Positions 2,689 to 37,668 of a DNA stretch of 64,000 nt are shown piece after piece. The translations under genes and the position numbers were made by a program. How positions within the stretch are numbered: the first letter of the stretch is position 1; the number at the start of each line of letters is the position of its first letter. Under the pieces are notes generated by a model, which saw only the letters and a program-made list of their open reading frames with translations, was not told the origin of the DNA and searched no databases. The stretch covers positions 1 to 64,000 of IMG/VR virus record IMGVR_UViG_3300045988_175036; one strand, given 5' to 3'. The stretch is from a virus.

Positions 2689-2707
2689 TTAGACGTGAAA
2701 CGTCTAA
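2689..2707. promoter_or_regulatory. TTAGACG-N5-CGTCTAA inverted repeat (left-most copy)
   Basis: TTAGACG-TGAAA-CGTCTAA, immediately downstream (minus sense) of the 2705-2735 terminator. Confidence 0.8.
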
Positions 2708-2735
2708 TAAAAAAAGAGTGATTAAATCACTCTTT
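2705..2735 (-). terminator. rho-independent terminator closing the leftward cassette series
   Basis: Minus strand: AAAGAGTGAT-TTA-ATCACTCTTT followed by TTTTTTATT. Confidence 0.8.
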
Positions 2736-2739
2736 ATCA

Positions 2740-2838
2740 TTATCCGAATTGGATAAAATTAGAATCTCCGCTTGCTTTCCAGGGGTGGTTGATACCCATG
2801 CGCTTGCACCAAAAATAAGCCTTAATTCTTCTAATCAT
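2740..2838 (-). CDS. small hypothetical protein (32 aa)
   Basis: AAAGGAAG RBS, ATG at 2838, translation MIRRIKAYFWCKRMGINHPWKASGDSNFIQFG. It sits between a consensus promoter and a terminator. It is below the 60-aa cutoff of the supplied ORF track. Confidence 0.45.
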   Translation of the reverse strand: MIRRIKAYFWCKRMGINHPWKASGDSNFIQFG

Positions 2839-2887
2839 TTTTATTACTTCCTTTCACTCTGGTTGTTTCTTTCAACCTTGTAACTAG

Positions 2888-2944
2888 ATTATAATATAAG
2901 AAATTGAATTTGTCAAGAACTTTTTTTAGACGGTTTACGTCTAA
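2888..2944 (-). promoter_or_regulatory. early cassette control region (promoter plus TTAGACG-N5-CGTCTAA)
   Basis: -10 TATAAT 2888-2893; -35 TTGACA 2911-2916 (17-nt spacer); inverted repeat TTAGACG-GTTTA-CGTCTAA 2926-2944. Confidence 0.75.
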
Positions 2945-2950
2945 AAATGC

Positions 2951-2979
2951 GTAAAAGAAAAGGACACATAATGTGTCCT
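2951..2979 (-). terminator. rho-independent terminator after 2995..3747
   Basis: Minus strand: AGGACAC-ATTAT-GTGTCCT followed by TTTCTTTTAC. Confidence 0.65.
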
Positions 2980-2994
2980 TTTCCTCTTTATGTG

Positions 2995-3747
2995 TCAACG
3001 CACCACGAATTTATTCTTTGTCTTGTAATACGTCGCGCGCGTTCCTTCGACGATAATTTTTTCACCCGGCAAGTCAATGGTGAACTCGCGTGTCACTTTA
3101 CGTTCAATAGAACGCTTTGCCTGATAGTCTCCATTCAAATCGGCACCACGGTCAAGGCAAGTAAACAAAATTTCTGCTTCGATTTCGCTGTCAGAAAGTG
3201 CGGTATGGTCTTCGGTGAATGACGTGTCAGAACGGATGTAACGTGTCAATGCTTCGGCAGTTGTGGAATAATGCCCGCTTTCAGTGAAAGCATTATTTTC
3301 TTCACACCATGCGCGGAATGTGTCATCAATCATAAAATGATGGACAAAACCGCGGATATCAGAAATAGGAACGGTTTCAAAAGGATTTATGACTTTGAAC
3401 CAATCGCAATTGAAATTGAAAACTTTTTCATCGAAAGCGGAATTGTAAGCAAACGCGCGTTCAACTTCATAATTGCGGAAATCACGGAGCATCTGCTGTG
3501 TTACATAACCGAACTTTTCCATTCGGATGGTTCGTGCTCTCAAAGCGCCAACATAAATAGAACGCTTGTTTGCGTAGTATGCAGTATTGAAAAGCGGGAG
3601 ATTATGCCAAATCTGCTCAATGACAAATTCACGCTTTACAAGGCAGGCGCGGGATTCTGTATCAAGAATCAGATAGCCGACATTATAACAAAACATCTTA
3701 TTTTCTTCAATTCCTGTCGTTTCAGTGTCGAATACACAAATTTTCAT
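2995..3747 (-). CDS. DEDDh-type 3'-5' exonuclease (DnaQ/epsilon-like), 250 aa
   Basis: ExoI FDTETTG near the N-terminus, ExoII YNSAFDEKVF, ExoIII HTALSDSEIE. RBS GAAAGGA. Confidence 0.75.
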   Translation of the reverse strand: MKICVFDTETTGIEENKMFCYNVGYLILDTESRACLVKREFVIEQIWHNLPLFNTAYYANKRSIYVGALRARTIRMEKFGYVTQQMLRDFRNYEVERAFAYNSAFDEKVFNFNCDWFKVINPFETVPISDIRGFVHHFMIDDTFRAWCEENNAFTESGHYSTTAEALTRYIRSDTSFTEDHTALSDSEIEAEILFTCLDRGADLNGDYQAKRSIERKVTREFTIDLPGEKIIVEGTRATYYKTKNKFVVR

Positions 3748-3806
3748 TTTTCAAAGTCCTTTCATATTTCATTGATGGGTCTTTCGTCCTCTATCAACGT
3801 AACCAT

Positions 3807-3895
3807 ATTATAGCATAGAAAAGGGATTTTGTCAAGAACTTTTTTTTGTCACGTAAGACGACGCTCGGCCGAGGTTTTAGACGATGGACGTCTAA
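3807..3895 (-). promoter_or_regulatory. early cassette control region
   Basis: -10 TATAAT 3807-3812; -35 TTGACA 3830-3835 (17 nt); degenerate GTCACGTAAGACGAC 3848-3862; inverted repeat TTAGACG-ATGGA-CGTCTAA 3877-3895. Confidence 0.75.
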
Positions 3896-3912
3896 GGTAG
3901 AATGAATGGGAA

Positions 3913-3933
3913 GAGGACGCGTTATGCGTCCTC
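3913..3933 (-). terminator. hairpin overlapping the stop codon of 3922..4092 (weak U-run)
   Basis: GAGGACGC / GCGTCCTC stem with TAA (3922-3924) in the loop. The downstream run TTCCCATTCATT is only moderately U-rich. Confidence 0.4.
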
Positions 3934-4092
3934 AGAAAAATCGCCTACGACAGAAAACCATACCTTACGGTATTCTGCTTTATAGACTTCTTGACTAACT
4001 TCTGTGAATCCTACTGTCGATAGTCTTTTTGCTTCTGATTCACTTGTCGTGCAAGTCAATCCACCTGTTTGCTTATTGATAAAATATTTCAT
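3922..4092 (-). CDS. hypothetical protein (56 aa)
   Basis: ACGGAGAA RBS precedes the ATG at 4092. The ORF track's 4110 start is a TTG lying upstream of that RBS. C-terminus ..SEDA. Confidence 0.6.
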   Translation of the reverse strand: MKYFINKQTGGLTCTTSESEAKRLSTVGFTEVSQEVYKAEYRKVWFSVVGDFSEDA

Positions 4093-4121
4093 TTCGAATT
4101 CTCCGTTCAATTTGTATCTTT

Positions 4122-4177
4122 ATTATACTACTTTTTTAGATTTTGTCAAGAAGAATTTTTAGACGTATTTCGTCTAA
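4122..4177 (-). promoter_or_regulatory. early cassette control region
   Basis: -10 TATAAT 4122-4127; -35 TTGACA 4144-4149 (16 nt); inverted repeat TTAGACG-TATTT-CGTCTAA 4159-4177. Confidence 0.75.
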
Positions 4178-4182
4178 AATCT

Positions 4183-4214
4183 TGAAAAAAAGAGGGTGAC
4201 GCTTTACGCGTCAC
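4183..4214 (-). terminator. rho-independent terminator with the stop codon of 4204..4587 in its loop
   Basis: GTGACGC (4196-4202) / GCGTCAC (4208-4214); TAA at 4204-4206 in the loop. On the minus strand it is followed by CCTCTTTTTTTC. Confidence 0.75.
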
Positions 4215-4587
4215 TTTCCTCCTTTTCCTTTTCGCGTTCCTCGCGCTTGCGCTTTGCTTCGGCGCGATTCTTTTCATCTCGTGCGATTTTTTCGGCTTTC
4301 TTCTTTGCGGTTTCGGCCTTCTTCGCGCGCTTTGCTTCGGTTTCCTGTGCGTAGTTCTGCGCTTCCTCATAACCGTCATAAGGAATATAACATTTATTTT
4401 CCTTATCGCGTTCGCCCTTCGGAATACTAAAAGCGATATTCAAATATCCTTCATCATCGCCACGCGCCCACGGGATGGAGATTGTTCCGCTTTTGACCTG
4501 TAACACATCTTCGCCCTTGCTCTCGAACAGTTCGCGCACGGCAGACATAAATTCCTCGCGGATTTCAGTTTCAACTTTACTTGCCAT
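4204..4587 (-). CDS. hypothetical protein (127 aa) with a highly charged K/E/R/A C-terminal half
   Basis: AAGGAAG RBS, ATG at 4587, C-terminus ..EESDA. Confidence 0.7.
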   Translation of the reverse strand: MASKVETEIREEFMSAVRELFESKGEDVLQVKSGTISIPWARGDDEGYLNIAFSIPKGERDKENKCYIPYDGYEEAQNYAQETEAKRAKKAETAKKKAEKIARDEKNRAEAKRKREEREKEKEESDA

Positions 4588-4622
4588 AGTTTTTGACTTC
4601 CTTTCTTTTATTTGGTAACTAG

Positions 4623-4721
4623 ATTATACCATAAATTTTTCAAAAAGTCAAGTATTTGAAGAAAAAAATTTTTGGCGCGTTAGATTGCATTCTCGAAGGA
4701 CTTTAGACGTATAACGTCTAA
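4623..4721 (-). promoter_or_regulatory. early cassette control region
   Basis: -10 TATAAT 4623-4628; -35 TTGACT 4646-4651 (17 nt); inverted repeat TTAGACG-TATAA-CGTCTAA 4703-4721. Confidence 0.7.
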
Positions 4722-4751
4722 AAATTTCTAAAGGGAAAGGCGAACCTAACC

Positions 4752-4949
4752 CTATTTTTCCTTTTCATCAATAAAAATTTCTTCATCGAGAAATTCCAAG
4801 CGATAAGTTTTTTCCTGGACAAGATAAGTTTTACAATGCGGACATTTGATAAAATACGAGTAATAATAATTATCATTTACTACTTCTTCAGTGGACTTGT
4901 AACAATTCTGAAATTCATCAAAGCGATTCTGACAATTTGGACAATACAT
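4752..4949 (-). CDS. small zinc-ribbon protein (65 aa)
   Basis: AAAGGAG RBS before the ATG at 4949. Motifs CPNC ... CPHC (CxxC-x35-CxxC). Confidence 0.65.
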   Translation of the reverse strand: MYCPNCQNRFDEFQNCYKSTEEVVNDNYYYSYFIKCPHCKTYLVQEKTYRLEFLDEEIFIDEKEK

Positions 4950-4978
4950 TTTAAAAGCTCCTTTCACTTGATATCTTT

Positions 4979-5035
4979 ATTATAGCAGAAACTTATGAAA
5001 AAGTCAAGAGAAACTTTTAGACGTTCTTCGTCTAA
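4979..5035 (-). promoter_or_regulatory. early cassette control region
   Basis: -10 TATAAT 4979-4984; -35 TTGACT 5002-5007 (17 nt); inverted repeat TTAGACG-TTCTT-CGTCTAA 5017-5035. Confidence 0.75.
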
Positions 5036-5042
5036 ATTGGTT

Positions 5043-5074
5043 CATAAAAAAGGACGTCACTTTATGTGACGTCC
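5043..5074 (-). terminator. rho-independent terminator after 5082..5474
   Basis: GGACGTCAC (5052-5060) / GTGACGTCC (5066-5074), followed on the minus strand by TTTTTTATG. Confidence 0.75.
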
Positions 5075-5081
5075 CGTTCGT

Positions 5082-5474
5082 TTACTCTACGTTGTTCGGC
5101 TCGGCGTCGCTCGGTTCGGCGTCTGCGAGGGAATAGCCCTTTGCCTTTCCCTTTCCCTTTACCTTGACTTCAACAGAAGTCACTTCACCGGACTTCTCAA
5201 GAATCCGGAGCAGAGAAGAACACTTCTGAACGTTCTTCAGTTCCGGCTTTGCATCAAAGAGGTCAGACGCGGTGATGTGGTGGTCAGCGGTGGCGAGAAC
5301 TTCGCGCACGATGGGCAGGAGCGCTTCGTTCTCCTTCTGCGCCTTCGTCGGTTTCGAAGAGCGCTCGGCGTTCTTCTTGTCCATTGCGGACAGGAGCGCG
5401 GCAGCCTTCTCAGAGATTTCAGCGGAAACGTTTTCCATGGACAGGATAGCATTGTAGAATTCACGAGTAGTCAT
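5082..5474 (-). CDS. hypothetical small DNA-binding-like protein (130 aa), paralog of 1717..2085
   Basis: Collinear similarity to 1717..2085 as described under that feature. AAAGGGG RBS. Confidence 0.7.
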   Translation of the reverse strand: MTTREFYNAILSMENVSAEISEKAAALLSAMDKKNAERSSKPTKAQKENEALLPIVREVLATADHHITASDLFDAKPELKNVQKCSSLLRILEKSGEVTSVEVKVKGKGKAKGYSLADAEPSDAEPNNVE

Positions 5475-5553
5475 AATAGACCCCTTTCATTTTAGCGACG
5501 GTCGCCACCCTATTTTTTATATTCAAGAGGTTTCCTCTCTTGATTACGCTTTT

Positions 5554-5737
5554 ATTATACCATAGATTTTTGAATTTGTCAAGAGGAAATTTTATTTTTT
5601 CAATTTCTTTTTTGTTTCTTTCCCTCTTGACATTATGGATTATATCATAATCTGCGCGAAAAGTCAAGAAGAAATTTTAGAAATTTTGTCACATAACGTG
5701 ACTTCGCGCGAGAAAGATTTAGACGAAGGACGTCTAA
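5554..5737 (-). promoter_or_regulatory. tandem-promoter control region with both palindrome types
   Basis: Proximal promoter: -10 TATAAT 5554-5559, -35 TTGACA 5577-5582. Distal promoter: -10 TATAAT 5639-5644, -35 TTGACT 5662-5667. GTCACATAACGTGAC at 5688-5702. TTAGACG-AAGGA-CGTCTAA at 5719-5737. Confidence 0.7.
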
Positions 5738-5749
5738 TTCAAGAGAGAA

Positions 5750-5777
5750 AGAAAAAAGAGGACGTTTACACGTCCTC
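5750..5777 (-). terminator. rho-independent terminator with the stop codon of 5766..5969 in its loop
   Basis: GAGGACG (5758-5764) / CGTCCTC (5771-5777); TAA at 5766-5768; U-run from the top-strand A-run 5752-5757. Confidence 0.7.
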
Positions 5778-5969
5778 TTCTCCAAAGAAATCTCTTAAAA
5801 CTGGAAGATAATTGTATCTAAAAAATGATTGAGCGGTAAAAAGATGGTCTGAAAGTTCTTGAAGTTCTGCCGCTTCTTCTTTACTTATAGTTTCTTTTGC
5901 TTGAGCAACTTCTATTGAGAGTTCTTCAATTTCGTCTACCATATTTCTAAATTTTTTAGTAAGATTCAT
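5766..5969 (-). CDS. hypothetical protein (67 aa)
   Basis: AAAGGAG RBS, ATG at 5969, C-terminus ..EEDV. Confidence 0.65.
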   Translation of the reverse strand: MNLTKKFRNMVDEIEELSIEVAQAKETISKEEAAELQELSDHLFTAQSFFRYNYLPVLRDFFGEEDV

Positions 5970-5997
5970 TTTTATTCTCCTTTCATTTGGTAATTAC

Positions 5998-6054
5998 ATT
6001 ATATCATAAAGAAATAAAAAAATCAAGAAAAATTTTTAGACGATAAACGTCTAA
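5998..6054 (-). promoter_or_regulatory. early cassette control region
   Basis: -10 TATAAT 5998-6003; -35 TTGATT 6021-6026 (17 nt); inverted repeat TTAGACG-ATAAA-CGTCTAA 6036-6054. Confidence 0.7.
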
Positions 6055-6057
6055 TTC

Positions 6058-6091
6058 AAGAGAGAAAGAAAAGAGGCGCTTTACGCGCCTC
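6058..6091 (-). terminator. rho-independent terminator after 6103..6387
   Basis: GAGGCGC (6073-6079) / GCGCCTC (6085-6091), followed on the minus strand by TTTTCTTTCTCTCTT. Confidence 0.7.
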
Positions 6092-6102
6092 AAAAAGATA
6101 TA

Positions 6103-6387
6103 TTACATTTTATTTTGCTCCTTTTCGTTGAGAATGTCAAAACATTTATTTTCATCAACTCCAATAAAAGTTACTTTACAAGAAACAGAATAGAATTTCC
6201 CACTTTTAAAGCTTGCTTCCCATTTTGCTACATATTTAAGACCATTGTTATCGTTTCGCCATTCTCCCGTTACCGTGCTTGTGATATATTTTCTTGCTAC
6301 TTTGTCTTTGACGTGGTTTTTCGCCATTACCATAGCCTGCTGAAGGTTGATAAAATAATATCCTCTTACGCGATAAATCATAGTCAT
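6103..6387 (-). CDS. hypothetical protein (94 aa)
   Basis: AAAGGAG RBS, ATG at 6387. Confidence 0.65.
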   Translation of the reverse strand: MTMIYRVRGYYFINLQQAMVMAKNHVKDKVARKYITSTVTGEWRNDNNGLKYVAKWEASFKSGKFYSVSCKVTFIGVDENKCFDILNEKEQNKM

Positions 6388-6461
6388 TAGAAATTCTCCT
6401 TTTGTGGTAAGTCACAACCTATTTTTATTTTGTTGAGTTCCTGTCTCAACTTTGTAATTAG

Positions 6462-6528
6462 ATTATAACATAAAAGTTTTGATTTGTCAATAATTTTTCG
6501 AAAAATTTTTTAGACGGTCTACGTCTAA
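6462..6528 (-). promoter_or_regulatory. early cassette control region
   Basis: -10 TATAAT 6462-6467; -35 TTGACA 6485-6490 (17 nt); inverted repeat TTAGACG-GTCTA-CGTCTAA 6510-6528. Leader hairpin GTTGAG..CTCAAC at 6432-6450. Confidence 0.75.
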
Positions 6529-6560
6529 TAGGAAAGGGAATACGCTTATCGCGTATTCCC
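6529..6560 (-). terminator. hairpin with the stop codon of 6546..6899 in its loop
   Basis: GGGAATACGC (6536-6545) / GCGTATTCCC (6551-6560); TAA at 6546-6548; short U-run TTTCCTA. Confidence 0.55.
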
Positions 6561-6899
6561 GCAAATAATTCTTTTCATTATCTGTTCAATAATACTGTGG
6601 CTATTCGGGATACAAAAAGGTAGTTTTATATTCAGTCTTTGTGCCTCGTTGAGAAGGTCTGCGCGAATGTTATCATATCCCGCAATGCTACTCAAAAGAC
6701 ACGTTCTTGCAATTTCTGCGTCGTGGTCTGCCTTTTTCCTGTCTGGCGTATTTTCTGGATAGAGATTGGTAGAGAGGATTGTTGCATAGGTGTCAAAAAC
6801 ACGCATTTCAAGTGTAAAAGTGCTTTCATGTAAACGTTCAATCCGATTATTGATTGCGGGATTGGTAGTTGGCTGAATTTTCTTTTTCTTTTTGAACAT
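6546..6899 (-). CDS. hypothetical protein (117 aa)
   Basis: AAGGAAG RBS, ATG at 6899. Confidence 0.65.
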   Translation of the reverse strand: MFKKKKKIQPTTNPAINNRIERLHESTFTLEMRVFDTYATILSTNLYPENTPDRKKADHDAEIARTCLLSSIAGYDNIRADLLNEAQRLNIKLPFCIPNSHSIIEQIMKRIICGNTR

Positions 6900-6933
6900 T
6901 TTGGAAACTTCCTTTCTTTTGTTTGGTAATTGT

Positions 6934-6990
6934 ATTATATCATAAGCATTTCAATTTGTCAATAATTTTTTTTAGACGGTTCACGTCTAA
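6934..6990 (-). promoter_or_regulatory. early cassette control region
   Basis: -10 TATAAT 6934-6939; -35 TTGACA 6957-6962 (17 nt); inverted repeat TTAGACG-GTTCA-CGTCTAA 6972-6990. Confidence 0.75.
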
Positions 6991-6991
6991 G

Positions 6992-7028
6992 ACAAAAAAC
7001 AGAAAAAGGTGACGCTCTATGCATCACC
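6992..7028 (-). terminator. rho-independent terminator overlapping the stop codon of 7024..7476
   Basis: GGTGACGC (7008-7015) / GCATCACC (7021-7028), with one G.U pair. Followed on the minus strand by TTTTTCTGTTTTTTG. Confidence 0.7.
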
Positions 7029-7476
7029 TAATTGAATGAAGGAAGTCAAAAATCTCTGTCGCGTCATATGCCACCATTCCTGCGTGCGTCCATTCTTCAC
7101 GATTTGGCTTTTCATCATCAAAAAGGAAACCGCCGCGTAACGTGCCAACTTCGCTTTTTGGTGTGCCGTAATGAACAATACAGATTTCATCGAATCGAAC
7201 GCTTTTTAAATGGCGCGAAAGCCATTCCATCTTCGCGCGGCGAACATCTTCAAGAAATTTTTCATCGCGGTCTTTGCTTCCCCATGATACTACACGAATT
7301 TTCCATCCCTTGCGCTGAATCGCGTTCAAACGTCGCGCCAGTCTTGAAAGATTGAGAAGTGCGCGCGCGTCTCTATATGGGCTTGCATCATGCGCGCGGA
7401 TTTTCGGAAGCCAATTTTCAACGCCGTAGAAATCGACAATTGTGCCGTCCATATCCAAACTAATAATTTTTTCCAT
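7024..7476 (-). CDS. HAD-superfamily phosphatase, 5'(3')-deoxyribonucleotidase-like (150 aa)
   Basis: N-terminal DMDGTIVDF (the DxDxT motif I), WGSK, and C-terminal FLFDDEKPN, as in NT5C-type nucleotidases. Confidence 0.55.
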   Translation of the reverse strand: MEKIISLDMDGTIVDFYGVENWLPKIRAHDASPYRDARALLNLSRLARRLNAIQRKGWKIRVVSWGSKDRDEKFLEDVRRAKMEWLSRHLKSVRFDEICIVHYGTPKSEVGTLRGGFLFDDEKPNREEWTHAGMVAYDATEIFDFLHSIR

Positions 7477-7505
7477 TTCAAAAACTCCTTTCTTTTTGTA
7501 TCTAA

Positions 7506-7605
7506 ATTATATCATAGTTTTCTTTTTTTGTCAATAAGAATTTTTATAAGTTTTTGTCATATAAGATGACATCAACAGTGGGAGTTTTAGACGATGAACG
7601 TCTAA
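7506..7605 (-). promoter_or_regulatory. early cassette control region with both palindrome types
   Basis: -10 TATAAT 7506-7511; -35 TTGACA 7529-7534 (17 nt); GTCATATAAGATGAC 7556-7570; TTAGACG-ATGAA-CGTCTAA 7587-7605. Confidence 0.75.
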
Positions 7606-7635
7606 TAAAAAAAGAGGACGCTTTATGCGTCCTCT
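7604..7635 (-). terminator. rho-independent terminator with the stop codon of 7623..7988 in its loop
   Basis: AGAGGACGC (7613-7621) / GCGTCCTCT (7627-7635); TAA at 7623-7625; followed on the minus strand by TTTTTTTATT. Confidence 0.8.
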
Positions 7636-7988
7636 CCTACGATTTCCCGAATATCATCAGGAAGTAGTTCACAAATTCTTGACATAATGTCAACCGCAGT
7701 CAACCATCCTTCAACTTCGTCTCCAACTTCTTCTTCATTGACAAGCGGCGCGCCCAGTGCTTCAATCAGCCCGCGCTCATGCCCATAACTTCCATAATGG
7801 CACACGCAATCCGCTACCCGCTCGCCCGTGCAAGCGTCCATAAAGATAACTTGAGGGCGCCCGCAAAATTTCACAACAGAATAAGTATATTTTATTGGTG
7901 GGAAAATCTTCAAGTAGTTAATAAGTTTGTCCATTTCTGTATTTTCAGGAATACCGCCATACATTTCTTCGAGTGCTTTATAATCCAT
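7623..7988 (-). CDS. hypothetical protein (121 aa)
   Basis: AAAGGAG RBS, ATG at 7988, C-terminus ..GEDA. Confidence 0.65.
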   Translation of the reverse strand: MDYKALEEMYGGIPENTEMDKLINYLKIFPPIKYTYSVVKFCGRPQVIFMDACTGERVADCVCHYGSYGHERGLIEALGAPLVNEEEVGDEVEGWLTAVDIMSRICELLPDDIREIVGEDA

Positions 7989-8022
7989 TTTAGAATCTCC
8001 TTTTCTTTTATTTGGTAACTAA

Positions 8023-8080
8023 ATTATAACACAAAAAATAAAAAAAGTCAAGAACTTTTTATTAGACGAAGCACGTCTAA
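8023..8080 (-). promoter_or_regulatory. early cassette control region
   Basis: -10 TATAAT 8023-8028; -35 TTGACT 8046-8051 (17 nt); inverted repeat TTAGACG-AAGCA-CGTCTAA 8062-8080. Confidence 0.75.
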
Positions 8081-8089
8081 TTTCCCACT

Positions 8090-8299
8090 AGAAGAAACGC
8101 GCGGTGATGGTTGCCCGCGCATTTCAATGTAAACAAAACAAAATCATGAAGAATTATTTTAGAAAGGAGATTTCCATCACACTGACCTTCTGTCAAAATC
8201 AGTGAAATGTATAACTAATTTTCTCCAACCATCAGAAGAAAATTAGAACCAATGAGAAGATTTTTCCTAACCCACCCACAACCATCTTCTCTTGATTAC
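8090..8299 (-). ncRNA. candidate phage-encoded structured ncRNA of about 210 nt (no credible ORF)
   Basis: Lies between a consensus promoter (-10 at 8306-8311, -35 at 8329-8334) and a GC-rich terminator: top-strand arms CGCGCGG 8098-8104 and CCGCGC 8114-8119, then a minus-strand GTTTCTTCT run. Internal hairpins at 8254-8291, 8215-8246 and 8180-8204. The longest ATG ORF is 17 codons and has no properly spaced RBS. Confidence 0.5.
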
Positions 8300-8305
8300 G
8301 TAATT

Positions 8306-8459
8306 ATTATAGCATGTTTCATGTGGTTTGTCAAGAGGAATTTCAAAATTTCTGGAAATTATTTTTGTAAAATTTTCTGAAATTCTTTCCTCTAACTATG
8401 TATATCATACTATATTTTCTGAAAAAGTCAAGAAAAACTTTTAGACGAAAAACGTCTAA
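8306..8459 (-). promoter_or_regulatory. tandem-promoter control region upstream of the candidate ncRNA
   Basis: Proximal promoter: -10 TATAAT 8306-8311, -35 TTGACA 8329-8334 (17 nt). Distal promoter: -10 TATGAT 8404-8409, -35 TTGACT 8426-8431 (16 nt). TTAGACG-AAAAA-CGTCTAA at 8441-8459. TTYCAGAAAWT direct repeats lie between the two promoters. Confidence 0.7.
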
Positions 8460-8465
8460 ATTGAT

Positions 8466-8499
8466 GTAGAAAAAGAGTTGACGCATTACGCGTCAACTC
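8466..8499 (-). terminator. rho-independent terminator with the stop codon of 8486..8884 in its loop
   Basis: GAGTTGACGC (8475-8484) / GCGTCAACTC (8490-8499); TAA at 8486-8488; followed on the minus strand by TTTTTCTAC. Confidence 0.75.
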
Positions 8500-8884
8500 C
8501 ATAGGTCTTCATTTCTTTTTTCAATTCTTCAATTTTATCAGCAGGAAGATACCAACGATAATGTTCTTCATCATAAAGATAAAGCCCAGTCGTTTTTCGA
8601 TTATTGCCGCCGTCGATGCTCCACGGAGAGATAATTCCACAGAATCTGAAAACTTCCTCGACAAAAGGAATTGCGCTCTCATCTTCAATATAAATTCCCC
8701 AAATCTCATCATAAAAACTAGCAATTACAGTATCAAAAGAAAGAACTTGTTTGTTCCCATTGAAAAAGATGACGCCGTTGAGATGGTCACCGATTTTTTC
8801 TAAAATTTCGTGTCGCTGGCATTCAATTTCATTGTCAAAAACCTGCCCGCAGAGGTCGCAAACATATTTTGTAATAGTAGTCAT
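8486..8884 (-). CDS. hypothetical protein (132 aa) with an N-terminal C2H2-like zinc finger
   Basis: CDLC..(x12)..H.ILEKIGDH pattern (YVCDLCGQVFDNEIECQRHE). AAAGGGG RBS. C-terminus ..GVDA. Confidence 0.65.
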   Translation of the reverse strand: MTTITKYVCDLCGQVFDNEIECQRHEILEKIGDHLNGVIFFNGNKQVLSFDTVIASFYDEIWGIYIEDESAIPFVEEVFRFCGIISPWSIDGGNNRKTTGLYLYDEEHYRWYLPADKIEELKKEMKTYGVDA

Positions 8885-8913
8885 TTTTTATTCCCCTTTC
8901 ATTTGGTATTTGT

Positions 8914-8971
8914 ATTATATCATAGAATTTTTCTTTTGTCAAGAATTTTTATTTAGACGGCAAACGTCTAA
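8914..8971 (-). promoter_or_regulatory. early cassette control region
   Basis: -10 TATAAT 8914-8919; -35 TTGACA 8937-8942 (17 nt); inverted repeat TTAGACG-GCAAA-CGTCTAA 8953-8971. Confidence 0.75.
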
Positions 8972-8977
8972 AATTTT

Positions 8978-9012
8978 CTAGGAGAGAAATGACGCGTTAT
9001 GCGTCATCTCTC
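8978..9012 (-). terminator. hairpin with the stop codon of 8997..9227 in its loop
   Basis: ATGACGC (8989-8995) / GCGTCAT (9001-9007), extendable with a bulge. TAA at 8997-8999. Moderate U-run. Confidence 0.55.
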
Positions 9013-9227
9013 AAGATTTCTTCGTTCAAAATATAACAATTGCCGTTGTCTTGAATTTCGATATTGCTCAAAACATTTTCCAATTCATCAACGGCTCTTT
9101 GTAATTCGTTGTTCCGTGTAAATTGCAACGCATTTCTCAACCAGCACCGTGCGTTATTGATATCAGCAAATTCTTTGTCTGAAAAAGAAATCTGCCGTCT
9201 TTTGATGGTAATATTTTCAATCTTCAT
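8997..9227 (-). CDS. hypothetical protein (76 aa)
   Basis: GAAGGAG RBS. ATGA overlap with the upstream ORF. C-terminus ..RDDA. Confidence 0.65.
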   Translation of the reverse strand: MKIENITIKRRQISFSDKEFADINNARCWLRNALQFTRNNELQRAVDELENVLSNIEIQDNGNCYILNEEILRDDA

Positions 9228-9391
9228 TTCAAAAACACTCCTTCAAAAATTTTGAAAATATTCCAATTTGCGAGAAATGGCCGCGCGAAAATCACATTGA
9301 AATAAGAAAAAATAAGCCAAAGAATTACAAGGATTCCAATTACACCAAAGAAATTTCCAAAAAATTTTTTAGTCTTCATAGACTTGCGCAT
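9224..9391 (-). CDS. small membrane protein (55 aa; alternative upstream start at 9442)
   Basis: Hydrophobic stretch FFGNFFGVIGILVILWLIFSYF. ATG at 9391 chosen because the upstream part of the track ORF overlaps the better-supported 9369..9506 ORF. Confidence 0.5.
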   Translation of the reverse strand: MRKSMKTKKFFGNFFGVIGILVILWLIFSYFNVIFARPFLANWNIFKIFEGVFLK

Positions 9392-9506
9392 AACAAATCC
9401 ACTCCAAAATGTAAAGATTAGCACGTCGCATTGCATCTTCAAAAGTCAATCCAAAAACAACTGCGCGTTTAGAAGTTTTGACGTTCTTGATAAAGTAAGT
9501 ATTCAT
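9369..9506 (-). CDS. small hypothetical protein (45 aa)
   Basis: AAAGGAGA RBS 6 nt before the ATG at 9506, directly downstream of a consensus promoter. Translation MNTYFIKNVKTSKRAVVFGLTFEDAMRRANLYILEWICYAQVYED. Below the track cutoff. Confidence 0.5.
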   Translation of the reverse strand: MNTYFIKNVKTSKRAVVFGLTFEDAMRRANLYILEWICYAQVYED

Positions 9507-9529
9507 TGTTTTCTCCTTTCTTTGGTTAT

Positions 9530-9586
9530 ATTATATCAGAATTTTTTGAAAAAGTCAAGAATTTTTTTTAGACGAATTACGTCTAA
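9530..9586 (-). promoter_or_regulatory. early cassette control region (drives the three-ORF unit 9506->8997)
   Basis: -10 TATAAT 9530-9535; -35 TTGACT 9553-9558 (17 nt); inverted repeat TTAGACG-AATTA-CGTCTAA 9568-9586. Confidence 0.75.
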
Positions 9587-9601
9587 GAAATTAGAGCTGA
9601 T

Positions 9602-9775
9602 TCAAGTCCAGCTCTTTCCTTCCAGATTTGGCAAAATTGTCAGCTTATAAACGCAGCTTCCAGCTTGTATATAGCTTTGGATGAGAGAAGGCAGCTCATC
9701 CAAAGTACCAATGTTGTCTTCGCTGATACCATGCTGGCCCTTGAAGCCGTTGTCATGTTCTACCAAAACTGTCAT
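9602..9775 (-). CDS. small hypothetical protein (57 aa)
   Basis: GGAAGGAG RBS, ATG at 9775, translation MTVLVEHDNGFKGQHGISEDNIG... Followed by the hairpin AGAGCTG..CAGCTCT (about 9592-9614). Below the track cutoff. Confidence 0.5.
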   Translation of the reverse strand: MTVLVEHDNGFKGQHGISEDNIGTLDELPSLIQSYIQAGSCVYKLTILPNLEGKSWT

Positions 9776-9852
9776 GATATATTACTCCTTCCATGTTATA
9801 CGACATTCTAATAAACTCTGGACAATATTCATTTTCCGCCGTCATTGCCTAT

Positions 9853-10030
9853 ATTATATCACATAATAGCGAAAAGTCAAGTCCTCTAACATGACAAAAT
9901 GGCGTCTAATAGTTAGACGAACTCCGTCTAAAAATGAATAAAAGTCACATAAGATGACTTAGACGAGCCACGTCTAAAAGTCATACTACATTGCTTTTAG
10001 ACGTGACCGGGTGATGTCATGTAAAGTGAC
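9853..10030 (-). promoter_or_regulatory. promoter with a dense upstream cluster of both palindrome types
   Basis: -10 TATAAT 9853-9858; -35 TTGACT 9875-9880 (16 nt). Half-site CGTCTAA 9903-9909. Full TTAGACG-N5-CGTCTAA at 9913-9931 and 9959-9977. GTCACATAAGATGAC 9944-9958. Half-site TTAGACG 9997-10003. GTCATGTAAAGTGAC 10016-10030. Confidence 0.7.
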
Positions 10031-12867: not shown

Positions 12868-13139
12868 AACTAGATTTAGTAAATGAGTTTGTCGCACGCG
12901 CGGCGTCACTGGAAGTAGAGGAGTTTTTGGGGCTTACCAATCTTCTCAATGTTCCGCTGACTACGGAAGCGCGCGATCACCGTCCTTTTGAGGATGTCTT
13001 TATTGATGCAGTTGTCGCTTTCGGTAAAATGGGGCGGAAGCAAAAACGAGAACTTATAAAAGTGCTGCGCCGCGTAGAAAAAGACAATAAAGAAATGCGC
13101 GCGACCATTGAAGAGGAGGCGGCCTCCAAATGCCAGTAA
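12864..13139 (+). CDS. hypothetical protein (91 aa, TTG start)
   Basis: AAAGGAGG at 12851-12858, then TTG at 12864, which overlaps the upstream stop codon (TTGA). The track's ATG at 12822 lies inside the upstream gene and has no RBS. Confidence 0.5.
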   Translation: MKLDLVNEFVARAASLEVEEFLGLTNLLNVPLTTEARDHRPFEDVFIDAVVAFGKMGRKQKRELIKVLRRVEKDNKEMRATIEEEAASKCQ

Positions 13140-14125
13140 TTCCTCAAATTCCTCGCCCTAAGCGTTCGTTTCTCTCAAAACGGTGCGCGCGATGTCAGGT
13201 AGAACAACCAGAAGAGGATTTCGCTTTCACTCACAGCGAATTCTATCCCGACCACCATCTTCCACTTTGTAATTCATGCATTACTTCGATGTTGCGCGAA
13301 CACGACTTTGATTGGGGTTTTATTGATAAGTTGTGCCAATGGGCCGATATTCCCTTTATTGTAAAAGAATGGGAGAGATTGCGCGAACTCAATTCTCTTG
13401 ATAGTGTATGGGCAGCTTATTCCAAAGTTTTTGCCTCGCAAGATTATGAAGGCCTTGGGTGGGGCTCTTATTTCAAGCAATATCAAGAACTAAAAGCAGT
13501 CGGTCTAGTGGAAGAAGAGATTCCACTTTTGAAGGAGAAGCATTTCGATGAGCTGCGCGCGCGATGGGGCGCAAATTACGATGAAGAGGCTCTCGATTAT
13601 CTTGAGAACCTTTATCAAGGACTTTTGATGTCTCAAAATGTAGTCGGCGCGCTTCAAATTGACCAAGCTCAAAAACTTTGTAAAGTTTCGTATGAGATTG
13701 ATAGTCGCATCCGCGCGGGAGATAAAGATGTCGATAAATTCATGGCAACCTATGACAAGCTAGTCAAAACCGCTGAGTTCACACCTAAAAATATAAAGAA
13801 CGCGCGTGACTTTGATAGCTTTGGTGAATTGGCACTTTGGCTTGAAAAGCGCGGAAATCAAAATAAATTCTACGATGGCGCGACACGTGATGTTATCGAT
13901 GAGACTATCAAAAATATTCAAGCTTGGAACCAGCGTCTCTATGTAAATGAAAGTAGTCTAAGTGAAGAAATTACCGCGCGCCTACAAGCTCTCAAAAATG
14001 TCCAAGAAAGCGAAAACTTCTATGAGACAGAGCAAAAAGATTTCGACGCAGACCTCTACGAAGCAGAAGTTTTCAAAGATGAGGATAGTGAAGACTTTGA
14101 AACAGAAGGAGAGATGGGCATATGA
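13130..14125 (+). CDS. hypothetical protein (331 aa) with an N-terminal zinc ribbon; small-terminase candidate by position only
   Basis: CARC..x25..CNSC. Sits immediately upstream of, and overlapping, the large terminase. Acidic C-terminus. Confidence 0.35.
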   Translation: MPVIPQIPRPKRSFLSKRCARCQVEQPEEDFAFTHSEFYPDHHLPLCNSCITSMLREHDFDWGFIDKLCQWADIPFIVKEWERLRELNSLDSVWAAYSKVFASQDYEGLGWGSYFKQYQELKAVGLVEEEIPLLKEKHFDELRARWGANYDEEALDYLENLYQGLLMSQNVVGALQIDQAQKLCKVSYEIDSRIRAGDKDVDKFMATYDKLVKTAEFTPKNIKNARDFDSFGELALWLEKRGNQNKFYDGATRDVIDETIKNIQAWNQRLYVNESSLSEEITARLQALKNVQESENFYETEQKDFDADLYEAEVFKDEDSEDFETEGEMGI

Positions 14126-14510
14126 GTAATGTAATTCAATTGCGCCCGCCCACTTCTCCTTTTCTTCAAGATAATCGTATCTATCGAGATGGCATTTTAC
14201 TTGAAAAAGGTGTTGAAGTTACTGAAGACTTTTTATTGCGTAATGAAAAGTTTTTTGCGGATTTGACGCAACTTTATACCGTATACCCTGACGTCTACTT
14301 AGACACAATCCAACCAGAAAATAGTCAGTTTGACCTATTTCCGTATCAGCGATGCTTCTTGAGGTCTCTGATGCGTTATAATCAAGTTTATATAACAGCA
14401 ACACGCGCAGCCTCTAAATCTTTTCTTTCTGTTCTAGGAATGTTCTTACAATGCGTTTTCATCCCTGGTCACAAATGTTCACTTATTGCGCCAGTCAAAA
14501 CACAAGGCGT
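14122..14510 (+). CDS. terL: terminase large subunit, exon 1 of 4
   Basis: Walker A-like YITATRAASKSF. The frame runs into a stop 8 codons past the proposed 5' splice site (U14510). Confidence 0.8.
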
Positions 14511-14787
14511 AAGATTTTGCGCCTCTCCTTTGTAAAAAGGAGATAAATCAGACATCTAATTGCTGGGAAACCCTAAAGTCCAAATGCCTTTTATGGAGCG
14601 AAAGCAGAAACAAGTTTTGGAATGGTCTACGGTGAAAGCCTAAAGATTTTTATAATGGGTAATCAGCATCCAACTCATTTTGAGAGGTTCAACGACTATC
14701 CTACGGGAGTAAATTATGAAATGGTGTCTTACCTTTATGGTAAAAGATATAGTCTAATCTTATGTGAAAGCATAAGCTAACAAAATG
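14511..14787 (+). mobile_element. group I-like intron (277 nt, no ORF), terL intron 1
   Basis: P1: exon AGGCGU (14505-14510) pairs with GCGCCU (14519-14524), including U14510.G14519. Core elements: UAAUUGCUGGG 14557-14567, GGUAAUCAGCA, UUCAACGAC 14688-14696, GAUAUAGUCUAAUC 14746-14759. The intron ends in G14787. Splicing restores the frame as ..APVKTQGV|KIFKEKIAEIL.. Confidence 0.75.
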
Positions 14788-15460
14788 AAAAATCTTCAAA
14801 GAAAAGATAGCTGAAATACTAAAGATTTGGCCGCTTCTTGAAAAAGAACTTGAAGTCTTTATGGGCAAACCTCACATCAATTTATCAAAAGATGTCGGTG
14901 AAGCCTATTTCAAAAACGGTTCGCTATTTACTGTCGAGGGCGCCACGGATTCGTCTAGGGGATTAAGACGCCACTCAATTTTCCTCGACGAAACCCGTGA
15001 TGCTGACGAAGATGCAGTTAGTGAAATTATTATTCCTCAATTGAATGTTTCCCGTCGTAATGCGCTTGGCCTTGTAAATCCATATGAAGCTGTAAATCAG
15101 CAAATGATTAGTGGTACTTCTGCGGGCACTAAATCGTCTTATGCTTACGCGTTACTTTGTGAGACAATGATCCAGGCTATAATTGACCCAGCGCACGCTT
15201 TTGTGATGGGACTTGATTATAGATTGCCCGCAATGCATGGCCTGGTAGACAAAGCTTTCGTCGAACGTCAAAAATTCTCATCCTCTTACAATGAAGCCAC
15301 TTTCGCAGCAGAGTTTTTAGGAATTTGGGAAGGCGGAAGCAATGAAGCTTGGTATGATTTTGAGAAACTTTCTAAATACAGAAAGAAAAAAAATCCAGAG
15401 TGGCATCAAAAATATAAAGACGATCCAAATGTTTTCTACTTACTGTCGATAGATATTGGT
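14788..15460 (+). CDS. terL: terminase large subunit, exon 2 of 4
   Basis: Walker B SIFLDE, coupling motif SGTSAG, and the start of the nuclease domain, YLLSIDIG. Confidence 0.8.
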
Positions 15461-15699
15461 GGGCCCTTAGTTCTGCCCTATTTTGTAGTAATATAAAATG
15501 TGTATCTTTCTAATTGCTGGGACACCCTTCGGGGTAATCAGCAACCAATCTACGGACGGTTCAACGACTATCTCGCAAGAGAGTAGAGGCAAGCGCCTCG
15601 AAATGGAAGATATCCCACTGGGATAATGATATAGTCTAATCTTTATGGAAACATAAAGCCCTATGGTATGGAATTAGCGACTTCATACAAATATAAATG
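15461..15699 (+). mobile_element. group I-like intron (239 nt, no ORF), terL intron 2
   Basis: Carries the same core as intron 1: UAAUUGCUGGG 15511-15521, UUCAACGAC 15560-15568, GAUAUAGUCUAAUC 15628-15641. The 5' exon ends at U15460, with weak P1 pairing G15458-C15477, G15459-C15476 and U15460.G15475. Ends in G15699. The junction gives ..SIDIG|RIHDSTVATVF.. Confidence 0.65.
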
Positions 15700-15892
15700 A
15701 GAATTCACGATAGTACAGTAGCAACAGTATTTCGAGTCAATAAAGTAAATGGCAAATACTATTCAACAGTAGTAAATATCTATGTTCTAGGGCGTCAAGC
15801 GGAAACTAAAACTTTCTCTCAACAGGCAATTGATATAAAACTTCTAATTGAGAGATATAATCCGCGCGAAGTCCTTATTGACACTAATGGCT
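15700..15892 (+). CDS. terL: terminase large subunit, exon 3 of 4
   Basis: Nuclease-domain segment RIHDSTVATVFRV...VLIDTNG. Confidence 0.75.
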
Positions 15893-37658: not shown

Positions 37659-37668
37659 GGAGGTTTGA

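What the first reader, a model, noticed from the sequence alone, without database searches (positions are those of the whole stretch)
8090..8334. Promoter-plus-terminator unit with no ORF: candidate structured phage ncRNA of about 210 nt
A consensus promoter (TTGACA 8329-8334, 17-nt spacer, TATAAT 8306-8311) is followed by about 210 nt on the minus strand. That stretch contains three clear hairpins (8254-8291, 8215-8246 with an 11-bp stem, and 8180-8204). It ends in a GC-rich terminator hairpin (8098-8120) followed by GTTTCTTCT. The longest ATG ORF is 17 codons with no properly spaced SD, whereas every neighbouring cassette has a strong AAAGGAG RBS. The unit occupies a normal cassette slot, with TTAGACG repeats on both sides.
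Basis: partly seen in the sequence, partly recalled or inferred. Interest (0 to 1): 0.65.

Follow-up and report, generated by a model that had tools for sequence, protein, structure and literature searches.

The report
Conserved non-coding early RNA gene of gut phages
One gene slot in the early region of this uncultured human-gut phage carries no protein gene but a strongly promoted, terminator-ended RNA of about 155-210 nt; it is better conserved than the protein gene next to it, belongs to no described RNA family, and its function is still unknown.

Summary
A 12/12 consensus promoter (8334-8306, minus strand) is followed by about 209 nt with hairpins H1, H2 and H3 and a GC-rich terminator hairpin T. 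No ribosome-binding-site-led ORF is present, although all 15 other gene-carrying cassettes of the early region have one.

The non-coding reading is well supported by comparison, though transcription could not be tested. I recovered 22 distinct versions from related gut-phage contigs.
- The 17-codon ORF loses its ATG (to ACG) in six versions, is frameshifted in others, and its tail changes radically.
- RNA divergence is 5-12%. The adjacent gene diverges 37-46% at codon position 3 and 22-30% at positions 1+2.
- The unit sits behind three different promoter arrangements and in front of different downstream genes. Some relatives lack it, so it is an accessory, self-contained unit.

There is no match in Rfam, GenBank phages, plasmids or representative prokaryote genomes. 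My best guess at mechanism is a trans-acting regulatory RNA, and that is inferred. Covariation statistics are underpowered. This is a new RNA family of a known kind.

The parts
8441..8459 (.). Upstream boundary palindrome TTAGACGTTTTTCGTCTAA, the element that marks the start of each cassette.
   Evidence: 17 copies in the window against 0 expected; one copy lies ahead of every early promoter.
8404..8431 (-). Promoter P1 (TTGACT, 16-nt spacer, TATGAT; TATAAT in relatives). It is the only promoter of the unit in eight relatives.
8334..8393 (-). Inverted repeat in the P1 leader (AGAGGAAAGAATTTC...GAAATTCCTCT). It ends at the -35 element of P2, and its 5' part is a polypurine, Shine-Dalgarno-like sequence.
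   Evidence: fold of the leader is -16 kcal/mol; the same module occurs at 5540-5737. The repeat is absent from versions that have only P1.
8306..8334 (-). Promoter P2: TTGACA, 17-nt spacer with TG, TATAAT (12/12). The inferred transcription start is near 8298.
   Evidence: Searches show it is conserved. L065/L066 carry a P2-like copy directly ahead of the RNA.
8090..8298 (-). RNA body, 209 nt here and 154-157 nt in the commoner short form.
   Evidence: the covariance model built from the short forms hits only 8090-8299 in the window (110 bits, E = 4e-30); divergence is 5-12% against 37-46% at codon position 3 of the adjacent gene.
8247..8297 (-). Hairpin H1 at the 5' end. Arms are AAUCAAGAGAAGAU and AUCUUCUC-A-UUGGUU. 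The apical region is G-rich: GGUUGUGGGUGGGUUAGG, 8266-8283.
   Evidence: Position 8 of the stem is GC, GU or AU; outer position 4 is UG or UA; an inserted A pairs with a U that is bulged in other versions. The G-rich segment is nearly invariant.
8215..8246 (-). Hairpin H2: 12-bp stem and 8-nt loop UGAUGGUU (8227-8234).
   Evidence: positions 10-12 change on both sides between the long and short forms; position 5 goes UA to CA to CG; position 2 is UG, CG or UA; the loop is unpaired with probability 0.90.
8175..8209 (-). Hairpin H3, an insertion specific to the long form.
   Evidence: absent from 16 of 22 distinct versions.
8161..8169 (-). CUCCUUUCU, the Shine-Dalgarno complement (CCUCCUUUCU in short forms, CACCUCCUUUCU in L065). 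It is a conserved island between two indels.
   Evidence: It is the only copy on the sense strand of the early region. Mean unpaired probability is 0.56.
8126..8143 (-). U-rich single-stranded tract UUUUGUUUUGUUUACAUU ahead of the terminator.
   Evidence: nearly invariant; unpaired probability 0.59.
8094..8125 (-). Terminator hairpin T: 11 pairs with a GC core and a 10-nt loop GCAACCAUCA (8105-8114). The loop is the reverse complement of UGAUGGUUG in the H2 loop.
   Evidence: a 9-nt loop-loop complement is reached by 0/500 and 1/500 shuffles; three of the six GATGGTTG copies in 64 kb lie inside this unit.
8090..8097 (-). U-tract UUUCUUCU after the terminator hairpin. It is better in some relatives (UUUCUUUUU) and poorer in others (CUUCUUCU).
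8062..8080 (.). Downstream boundary palindrome, followed by the next cassette's own promoter at 8051-8023.
8232..8285 (-). 17-codon ORF MVVGGLGKIFSLVLIFF, rejected as a gene.
   Evidence: Its start codon is lost in six relatives, it is frameshifted in at least two others, and its tail changes radically.

Best explanation
The unit is a self-contained, accessory, non-coding RNA gene of the early (host sigma-A-dependent) region of a family of uncultured human-gut phages.

Host RNA polymerase starts at the consensus promoter P2, or at the upstream P1, and stops at a GC-rich hairpin followed by a U-tract. This gives an RNA of about 209 nt here and about 155 nt in most relatives.

The conserved architecture has five parts:
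- a 5'-terminal hairpin H1 with a G-rich top;
- a 12-bp hairpin H2;
- a single-stranded C/U-rich linker that carries the Shine-Dalgarno complement CCUCCUUUCU;
- a U-rich tract;
- a terminator hairpin whose 10-nt loop can kiss the H2 loop.

What is shown:
- the promoter, the hairpins and the terminator hairpin T are in the sequence;
- no ORF is conserved;
- purifying selection on the unit is stronger than on the adjacent protein gene;
- the unit is independent of which promoter arrangement precedes it and which gene follows it.

What is inferred:
- The RNA acts in trans as an abundant early riboregulator.
- The unpaired CU-rich linker pairs with purine-rich ribosome-binding sites of mRNAs and blocks initiation, as C-rich sRNAs of Firmicutes do.
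- H1 protects the 5' end from exonucleolytic decay.
- The H2-terminator loop contact compacts and stabilises the RNA.

My probabilities are about 0.85 that it is a real non-coding RNA gene and about 0.3 that Shine-Dalgarno occlusion in trans is the mechanism.
For: Promoter and cassette grammar:
- Searches show the promoter and the cassette layout, and that this is the only one of the 16 gene-carrying cassettes without a ribosome-binding-site-led ORF.

Relatives:
- 22 distinct versions were recovered.
- Three promoter contexts all place the start just upstream of H1.
- The downstream gene differs between relatives and always has its own promoter.

Against coding:
- ATG is ACG in six versions, there are frameshifts, and single-base indels occur at several sites.

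Selection:
- RNA divergence is 5-12%, against 22-30% at codon positions 1+2 and 37-46% at position 3 of the adjacent gene in the diverged relatives.
- In L001 the RNA shows 0/209 mismatches, against 11/399 and 44/366 in the flanking genes.

Structure:
- H1, H2 and the terminator hairpin T appear in the minimum-free-energy fold of 10 of 13 versions.
- 92.8% of cells are paired, against 44-59% when the partners are slid.
- Two-sided changes occur in H2 and H1.
- Loops and linker are at least as conserved as the stems.

Loop-loop contact:
- The complement is 9 nt.
- Five independent loop substitutions keep pairing through G.U, and one breaks it.
- Both loops are unpaired with probability 0.90 and 0.93.

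Shine-Dalgarno complement:
- It is an invariant island between indels and occurs only once on the sense strand of the early region.
Against:
- The covariation shuffle test gives no excess over shuffles, because mean column identity is 92%.
- The short form folds no better than its shuffles (z = -1.21).
- The Shine-Dalgarno complement is only moderately accessible (unpaired probability 0.2-0.93). In several versions it is predicted to pair with the purine-rich 5' arm instead.
- No specific target was found. There is no antisense match of 14 nt or more in the 64-kb window.
- The linker pairs no better with early than with other translation-initiation regions (P = 0.7).
- The host is unknown, so host targets could not be searched.
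- The U-tract is poor in L070, L072 and L073.
- Promoter regions in these phages are about as conserved as the RNA, and mosaic exchange of cassettes could inflate apparent conservation.
Confidence: 0.55

Rival explanations
1. A structured RNA that works by binding a protein or assembling with itself (decoy, scaffold or sponge) rather than by pairing with mRNAs. Its invariant loops and G-rich top would be the contact surfaces, and the H2-terminator loop contact would build a defined tertiary fold or link molecules.
For: - Loops, the G-rich segment and the linker are as conserved as, or more conserved than, the stems.
- The loop-loop complement is 9 nt, with substitutions that keep pairing.
- No mRNA target emerged.
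- The G-rich segment has four G-runs (G4Hunter-type score 1.1-1.55).
Against: - No partner is known.
- The adjacent 132-aa zinc-finger-like protein is only syntenic, and it occurs without the RNA in L074 and L075.
- The short form has no significant folding energy.
- There is no match to any structured RNA family.
Confidence: 0.2
2. A cis-acting transcription element. One form is an attenuator whose terminator is regulated. The other is a put-like RNA that modifies the polymerase transcribing it, so that it reads through the many terminators of the downstream cassettes.
For: - Two conserved hairpins lie directly after very strong promoters, with no ORF.
- The unit sits upstream of about 12 further terminator-ended cassettes on the same strand.
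- The U-tract is interrupted, and poor in L070, L072 and L073.
- The terminator loop is complementary to an upstream loop.
Against: - Every downstream cassette, including the next one, has its own consensus promoter.
- The gene that follows differs between relatives.
- The complementarity is confined to the loops and cannot replace the terminator stem (read from the sequences).
- The linker and terminator loop are strongly conserved, which a put-like element does not need.
- L010 and L074 lack the unit while keeping the downstream cassettes.
Confidence: 0.12
3. A DNA-level element: a transcription-primed (R-loop) replication origin, or a cluster of protein-binding sites (TGATGGTTG three times), rather than an RNA gene.
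For: - GATGGTTG occurs three times within 200 bp, against six copies in 64 kb.
- A G-rich transcript lies directly after a strong promoter, in AT-rich DNA.
Against: - L010, L074 and L075 lack the unit, so it is not essential.
- The H1 copy of the motif decays in four independent ways, while the two copies that sit in hairpin loops are kept.
- The cumulative GC-skew minimum is at about 12-14 kb, not here.
- Stem changes are of the pair-preserving kind.
Confidence: 0.05
4. A micropeptide gene (17 aa, hydrophobic, like a type I toxin), or a decaying cassette that has lost its gene and has no function.
For: - A 17-codon ATG ORF encoding a hydrophobic peptide exists in the window.
- The cassette slot normally holds a protein gene.
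Against: Against a peptide gene:
- The start codon is lost in six versions, the ORF is frameshifted in others, and 5 of 7 tail codons change radically with no synonymous change.
- There is no spaced ribosome-binding site and no antisense promoter.

Against a decaying cassette:
- The sequence is more conserved than the neighbouring protein gene.
Confidence: 0.04

Closest known systems
C-rich sRNAs of Firmicutes that occlude the Shine-Dalgarno sequence (RsaE/RoxS, LhrC, S. aureus RNAIII). This is from my own knowledge; LhrC and UCCC motifs are also mentioned in PMC12282133.
   Same: - It is a small, terminator-ended RNA from its own promoter.
- It has an unpaired pyrimidine-rich motif complementary to ribosome-binding sites.
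- A U-rich tract precedes the terminator.
   Different: - There is no sequence or structure match to any Rfam family.
- The motif is CCUCCUUUCU, identical to the 16S rRNA 3' tail, rather than UCCC or CCCC.
- It is encoded by a lytic-type phage.
- No target has been identified.
Abundant ORF-less early transcripts of large lytic Firmicutes phages: phage K lnc/snc RNAs (PMC9241854) and the highly transcribed intergenic regions of Listeria phage CKA15 (PMC12282133).
   Same: - The unit is an ORF-less slot with its own early sigma-A-type promoter.
- It lies in a phage whose early region is built of many strong promoters.
- Its function is unknown.
   Different: - There is no sequence similarity to any GenBank phage.
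- Those RNAs were seen by RNA-seq, whereas this one is supported by comparative genomics only.
phi29 packaging RNA (pRNA). This is from my own knowledge.
   Same: - It is a structured phage RNA of about 170 nt made from an early promoter.
- Two of its loops are complementary to each other.
   Different: - The pRNA family did not match in Rfam.
- Some relatives lack the unit, so it cannot be an essential part of the packaging motor.
HK022 put RNA, a cis-acting antitermination RNA. This is from my own knowledge.
   Same: Two stem-loops lie directly downstream of a strong early promoter, with no ORF, upstream of terminators.
   Different: - The unit ends in its own conserved terminator.
- The downstream genes have their own promoters.
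- The conserved linker and terminator loop are not explained by this model.
5' mRNA stabilisers of Bacillus: the STAB-SD of cryIIIA and the polypurine stabiliser of phage SP82 early RNA. This is from my own knowledge.
   Same: - A polypurine, Shine-Dalgarno-like AGAGGAAAG lies near the 5' end of the P1 transcript without a start codon.
- Both start sites are followed by a 5'-terminal hairpin.
   Different: This concerns only the leader and H1, not the body of the RNA. It was not tested.

Membership tests
Any described RNA family (Rfam 15, 4227 models, including sRNAs, riboswitches, pRNA, 6S, Y RNA and CRISPR repeats) | A covariance-model score at or above the family's gathering threshold. | tested here: not met
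   at gathering thresholds the only hits in the window are three group I introns elsewhere; the best hit in 7900-8600 has E = 0.42 and 15.7 bits against a threshold of 76; no hit at E <= 0.1 in the diverged relatives L073, L065 and L012.
Independent sigma-70/sigma-A transcription unit | A consensus -35 and -10 at correct spacing, and an intrinsic terminator (a GC-rich hairpin plus a U-tract). | tested here: met
   the promoter scores 12/12 with TG; the hairpin has 11 pairs and is followed by UUUCUUCU. The terminator is atypical, with a 10-nt loop and an interrupted U-tract, so the scan did not call it. Activity was not measured.
Non-coding RNA gene (as opposed to a small protein gene) | No ORF with conserved start, frame and product; indels that are not multiples of three are tolerated. 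| tested here: met
   ATG becomes ACG in six versions; 1-nt indels occur at GGAAAAATC, GGGTTAGG, GTGTTTTTG and AGTGCCTCC; the GTG/ATG ORF after GGAG is absent from L003, L048, L029 and all long forms.
Structured RNA supported by covariation | Statistically significant compensatory changes in the proposed helices. | tested here: inconclusive
   92.8% of cells are paired against 44-59% when slid, but the shuffles equal the observed value, and only one pair shows a double change within the short forms; between the long and short forms, H2 positions 10-12 and H1 position 8 change on both sides, but these trace to few events.
Kissing-loop (loop-loop) tertiary contact | Two hairpin loops with 6 or more complementary bases, kept complementary in relatives. 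| tested here: inconclusive
   the complement is 9 nt, reached by 0/500 and 1/500 shuffles; five one-sided wobble-compatible changes and one disruptive change; there is no double compensatory change. Physical contact cannot be tested here.
Type I toxin-antitoxin locus | A conserved small hydrophobic toxin ORF, plus an overlapping or divergent antisense RNA promoter. | tested here: not met
   The ORF is not conserved. There is no promoter-like site on the plus strand within 8050-8500.
Shine-Dalgarno-occluding trans-acting sRNA | An accessible motif complementary to ribosome-binding sites, plus demonstrated pairing with and repression of target mRNAs. | not testable with these tools
   The motif is present and conserved. 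Its accessibility is moderate. No specific target is predicted in the window. The host genome is unknown.
cis-acting leader of the downstream gene | A constant association with one downstream gene that depends on read-through. | tested here: not met
   The downstream gene varies between relatives: a 121-aa gene, a 131-aa DUF7448 gene, a 70-aa gene, an NT5C gene and a MazE-like gene. It always has its own promoter.

The most novel reading that the evidence does not exclude
The RNA mimics the 3' end of 16S rRNA: a hairpin followed by single-stranded (CA)CCUCCUUUCU. It is made in bulk from tandem consensus promoters early in infection. It would either titrate Shine-Dalgarno-led mRNAs or titrate a factor that recognises the ribosomal anti-Shine-Dalgarno tail. 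That would be an RNA-based takeover of translation initiation, held in a compact fold by the H2-terminator kissing loop.
Probability: 0.1. Interest if true: 0.85.

Novelty: new member of a known kind. Interest (0 to 1): 0.55.

Why it matters
Non-coding RNAs of lytic phages are poorly known. The few seen by RNA-seq in large Firmicutes phages have no assigned function. Here comparative genomics alone isolates one clean case: a self-contained cassette under stronger constraint than its protein-coding neighbour, with defined ends. It also offers three short candidate functional elements that can each be mutated: the Shine-Dalgarno complement, the loop-loop pair and the G-rich top.

The family occurs in many human-gut metagenomes. 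It adds a new RNA family, for which a covariance model now exists. It also gives a concrete handle on how gut phages manipulate their hosts early in infection. If the Shine-Dalgarno-complement reading is right, this would be an RNA route to translational takeover.

Tried and rejected
Searches that found no relative or family:
- Megablast and blastn against GenBank phages found none. The only hit was a 56-nt promoter match to a Listeria phage.
- blastn against plasmids found nothing.
- A gapped-motif scan of 185,579 representative prokaryote genomes gave three chance hits with no wider similarity.
- Rfam found nothing at gathering or permissive thresholds, and no tRNA or tmRNA was found.
- The bare 18-mer and 17-mer scans of viral contigs mostly returned chance hits in unrelated contigs. 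The covariance model confirms that these are not homologues.
- There is no second copy in the window.

Coding readings, all rejected:
- the 17-aa ORF;
- the 39-codon TTG ORF that runs through the terminator;
- the GTG/ATG ORF behind GGAG in some short forms;
- plus-strand ORFs behind AGAAAGGAG;
- read-through of TGA under an alternative genetic code.
None is conserved across forms.

Target search:
- No antisense match of 14 nt or more was found in the window.
- The linker shows no preference for early over other translation-initiation regions.

Other steps:
- A first RNAalifold run used wrong coordinates for two loci and was not used.
- The structure of the neighbouring 132-aa protein was predicted to look for an RNA-binding partner. 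It showed only a weak single C2H2-type zinc-finger resemblance.
- The H1 copy of GAUGGUUG was considered as a second kissing partner and dropped, because it decays in four lineages.
Full report
**What is in the sequence**

On the minus strand, the stretch from 8459 to 8062 has the layout of an early gene cassette of this phage.
- It begins with a TTAGACG-N5-CGTCTAA palindrome at 8441-8459.
- A promoter follows: P1, TTGACT-16-TATGAT, at 8431-8404.
- A second, perfect promoter follows: P2, TTGACA, 17-nt spacer with TG, TATAAT, at 8334-8306.
- About 209 transcribed bases come next.
- A GC-rich hairpin (8094-8125) with UUUCUUCU (8090-8097) ends the unit.
- The next palindrome lies at 8062-8080.

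The window holds 17 such palindromes against 0 expected. It also holds eight 12/12 promoters in 9 kb, all on this strand.

A scan of the cassettes, each running from one palindrome to the next, shows that all 15 other gene-carrying cassettes have a ribosome-binding-site-led ORF of at least 25 codons. This one has none.

The transcript 8298-8085 folds at -65.3 kcal/mol (z = -4.75).

**The genome**

The window is a large phage with no close relative in GenBank.
- Its portal protein is about 30% identical to those of uncultured human-gut phages such as phAss-1. The host of phAss-1 was predicted to be a member of the Clostridia (PMC10607447).
- Consensus sigma-A promoters with TG and strong AAAGGAG ribosome-binding sites point to a Firmicute host. 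This is inference.
- The neighbouring early proteins are small and mostly without Pfam matches.

**Relatives**

I found related loci by three routes.
- The two flanking proteins found related IMG/VR contigs.
- A gapped motif found 14 human-gut metagenome contigs.
- Distant homologues of the upstream 132-aa gene, down to 55% identity, led to further contigs.

Together these give 22 distinct versions of the RNA: 6 'long' forms of 209-211 nt and 16 'short' forms of 154-157 nt. The short form lacks H3 and ten further bases. H3 is therefore an insertion and not part of the core.

A covariance model built from the short forms finds exactly one copy in the window, at 8090-8299 (110 bits). It finds none in the unrelated contigs that share only a 17-mer.

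**It is not a protein gene**

- The ATG of the 17-codon ORF is ACG in L061, L065, L067, L069, L070 and L072.
- A single-A deletion frameshifts the ORF in L007 and L029.
- The long and short forms differ at 5 of its last 7 codons, with radical replacements and no synonymous change.
- One-base indels are tolerated at four other places.
- No other ORF on either strand keeps its start and frame across forms.
- There is no antisense promoter.

**It is under selection and self-contained**

Against the window, the RNA of the diverged relatives differs at 5-12% of aligned bases. The adjacent 132-aa gene differs at 22-30% of codon positions 1+2 and at 37-46% of position 3. In L001 the RNA is identical (0/209), while the flanking genes carry 11/399 and 44/366 mismatches.

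Three promoter arrangements occur, and each places the start just upstream of H1.
- P1 plus P2 together, as in the window.
- P1 alone, where a 66-nt deletion removes P2 but leaves H1 intact. This is seen in eight versions.
- In L065 and L066 a 54-aa gene is inserted after P1-P2, and the RNA has its own P2-like promoter.

The downstream gene varies between relatives and always has its own promoter. L010, L074 and L075 lack the unit. It is therefore accessory.

One caveat applies. Promoter regions are about as conserved as the RNA, and cassettes are clearly exchanged between phages, which could inflate apparent conservation.

**Structure**

H1, H2 and T appear in the minimum-free-energy fold of 10 of 13 versions. 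I counted pairs outward from the loops in all 22 versions.

H2:
- Positions 10-12 change on both sides between the long and short forms; this amounts to the deletion of one base pair.
- Position 5 goes from U-A to C.A to C-G.
- Position 2 is U.G, C-G or U-A.

H1:
- Position 8 is G-C, G.U or A-U.
- An inserted A pairs with a U that is otherwise bulged.

T: changes are mostly one-sided and wobble-compatible.

The formal test on the short forms gives 92.8% paired cells, against 44-59% when the partners are slid. It shows no excess over column shuffles, because mean column identity is 92%. The short form also has no significant folding z-score (-1.21). The helices are therefore compatible with the data and modestly supported, but not statistically proven.

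*(a) Loop-loop complementarity.* The 10-nt terminator loop G-CAACCAUCA is the exact reverse complement of UGAUGGUUG in the H2 loop.
- A loop-loop complement of 9 nt is reached in 0/500 shuffles of the long form and 1/500 of the short form.
- Three of the six GATGGTTG copies in the 64-kb window lie inside this 200-nt unit.
- Both loops are unpaired in the nested-structure ensemble, with probabilities 0.90 and 0.93.
- Five independent substitutions keep pairing through G.U. One, in L066, breaks a terminal pair.
- A third copy, in H1, decays in four lineages and is probably irrelevant.
- The standard cassette terminators of this region have short loops that carry the gene's stop codon. This terminator is of a different kind.

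*(b) The Shine-Dalgarno complement.* An invariant CUCCUUUCU sits as an island between the two indels that separate the forms. It reads CCUCCUUUCU in short forms and CACCUCCUUUCU in L065.
- It is the complement of the AGAAAGGAG ribosome-binding sites of this phage.
- From textbook knowledge, it is identical to the 3' tail of Firmicute 16S rRNA.
- It is the only copy on the sense strand of the early region.
- Its predicted accessibility is moderate (mean 0.56). In some versions it competes with the 3' arm of H1 for the purine-rich 5' arm.

*(c) The G-rich top of H1.* GGUUGUGGGUGGGUUAGG is nearly invariant.

Overall, loops and linker are at least as conserved as the stems.

**Mechanism**

Shown by the data: this is a conserved, ORF-less unit bounded by a promoter and a terminator hairpin.

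Inferred: it is an abundant early trans-acting RNA.
- The layout is a 5' hairpin, a single-stranded pyrimidine-rich segment, a U-rich tract and a terminator. This is the usual layout of base-pairing sRNAs.
- The motif suggests occlusion of ribosome-binding sites.

I could not find a specific target.
- No antisense match of 14 nt or more exists in the window.
- The linker pairs equally well with early and other initiation regions.
- The host is unknown.

Rivals:
- a protein-binding or self-assembling structured RNA, favoured by the invariant loops;
- a cis-acting attenuator or put-like antiterminator, disfavoured because every downstream cassette has its own promoter and the neighbour varies;
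- a DNA-level site or origin, disfavoured because the unit is dispensable and the stem changes preserve pairing;
- a micropeptide gene or a dead cassette, contradicted by the comparative data.

**Comparison with what is known**

Nothing in Rfam matches, including pRNA, 6S, Y RNA and Firmicute sRNAs. There is no homologue in GenBank phages, plasmids or representative prokaryote genomes.

The closest analogues in kind are the abundant ORF-less early transcripts seen by RNA-seq in phage K and in Listeria phage CKA15 (PMC9241854, PMC12282133). The closest analogues in inferred mechanism are the C-rich Shine-Dalgarno-targeting sRNAs of Firmicutes.

It is a new RNA family of a known kind. Its interest is moderate, and would be higher if the 16S-tail mimicry or the kissing loop proves functional.

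Noticed in passing
window 2689-9977, both strands (palindromic): There are 17 exact TTAGACG-N5-CGTCTAA palindromes against 0 expected by chance. One lies just upstream of each early promoter, and cassette gains and losses between relatives fall between palindrome-bounded units. They look like operators for a dimeric regulator, or like insulator or recombination joints.
   Followed up: partly
window 4196-8500, minus strand (for example 8474-8500, 7610-7638, 6536-6560, 6073-6091, 5051-5075): The terminators of the early cassettes resemble one another, and each carries its gene's stop codon in the hairpin loop (...GACGCG-TAA-TGCGTC...). As a result many early proteins end in -DA. The terminator of the RNA unit is not of this type.
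   Followed up: partly
window 5540-5737, minus strand: The tandem promoter module is repeated here ahead of the 130-aa gene 5082-5474. The module is P1, then an inverted repeat AGAGG(G)AAAG...TTTCCTCT abutting the -35 element, then P2. The initial transcribed sequence CGTAATCAAGAGA and the 5' hairpin are the same as in the RNA unit.
   Followed up: partly
window 14501-14776, 15447-15658 and 15806-16079, plus strand: Three group I introns (Rfam RF00028, 66-89 bits) lie within 1.6 kb, between ORF pieces 13130-14125, 14861-15496 and 16104-16664. These pieces have no Pfam match. They are probably one interrupted gene just upstream of the portal gene.
   Followed up: partly
window 8486-8884, minus strand, and loci L001-L075: The upstream 132-aa protein always precedes the RNA in the 22 versions found. 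Its AlphaFold2 model is confident (pLDDT 88.9). It shows a single N-terminal C2H2-type zinc finger (only weak Foldseek hits, E = 0.3-2) and an otherwise unmatched fold. In L074 and L075 the gene is duplicated in tandem and the RNA is absent.
   Followed up: partly
loci L010 1460-2020, L065 3390-4080 and L074 1880-2520: The early region is a mosaic of cassettes. L010 lacks three cassettes that the window has: the cassette of small ORFs, the 132-aa gene and the RNA. L065 and L066 have an extra 54-aa gene between P1-P2 and the RNA. Downstream neighbours differ between relatives (DUF7448, NT5C, a MazE/AbrB-like protein).
   Followed up: partly
window 7024-7476, minus strand: This early gene encodes an NT5C-like 5'(3')-deoxyribonucleotidase (Pfam PF06941, E = 4e-6). 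It is conserved in all relatives examined.
   Followed up: no
window 30813-43605, plus strand: Two very large ORFs of 1966 and 1978 aa lie close together. They were not examined.
   Followed up: no
window 7999-8054: The promoter region of the 121-aa gene gives the only blastn match to a GenBank phage: Listeria phage LMTA-148, 56 nt at 82% identity, in an unannotated stretch.
   Followed up: no
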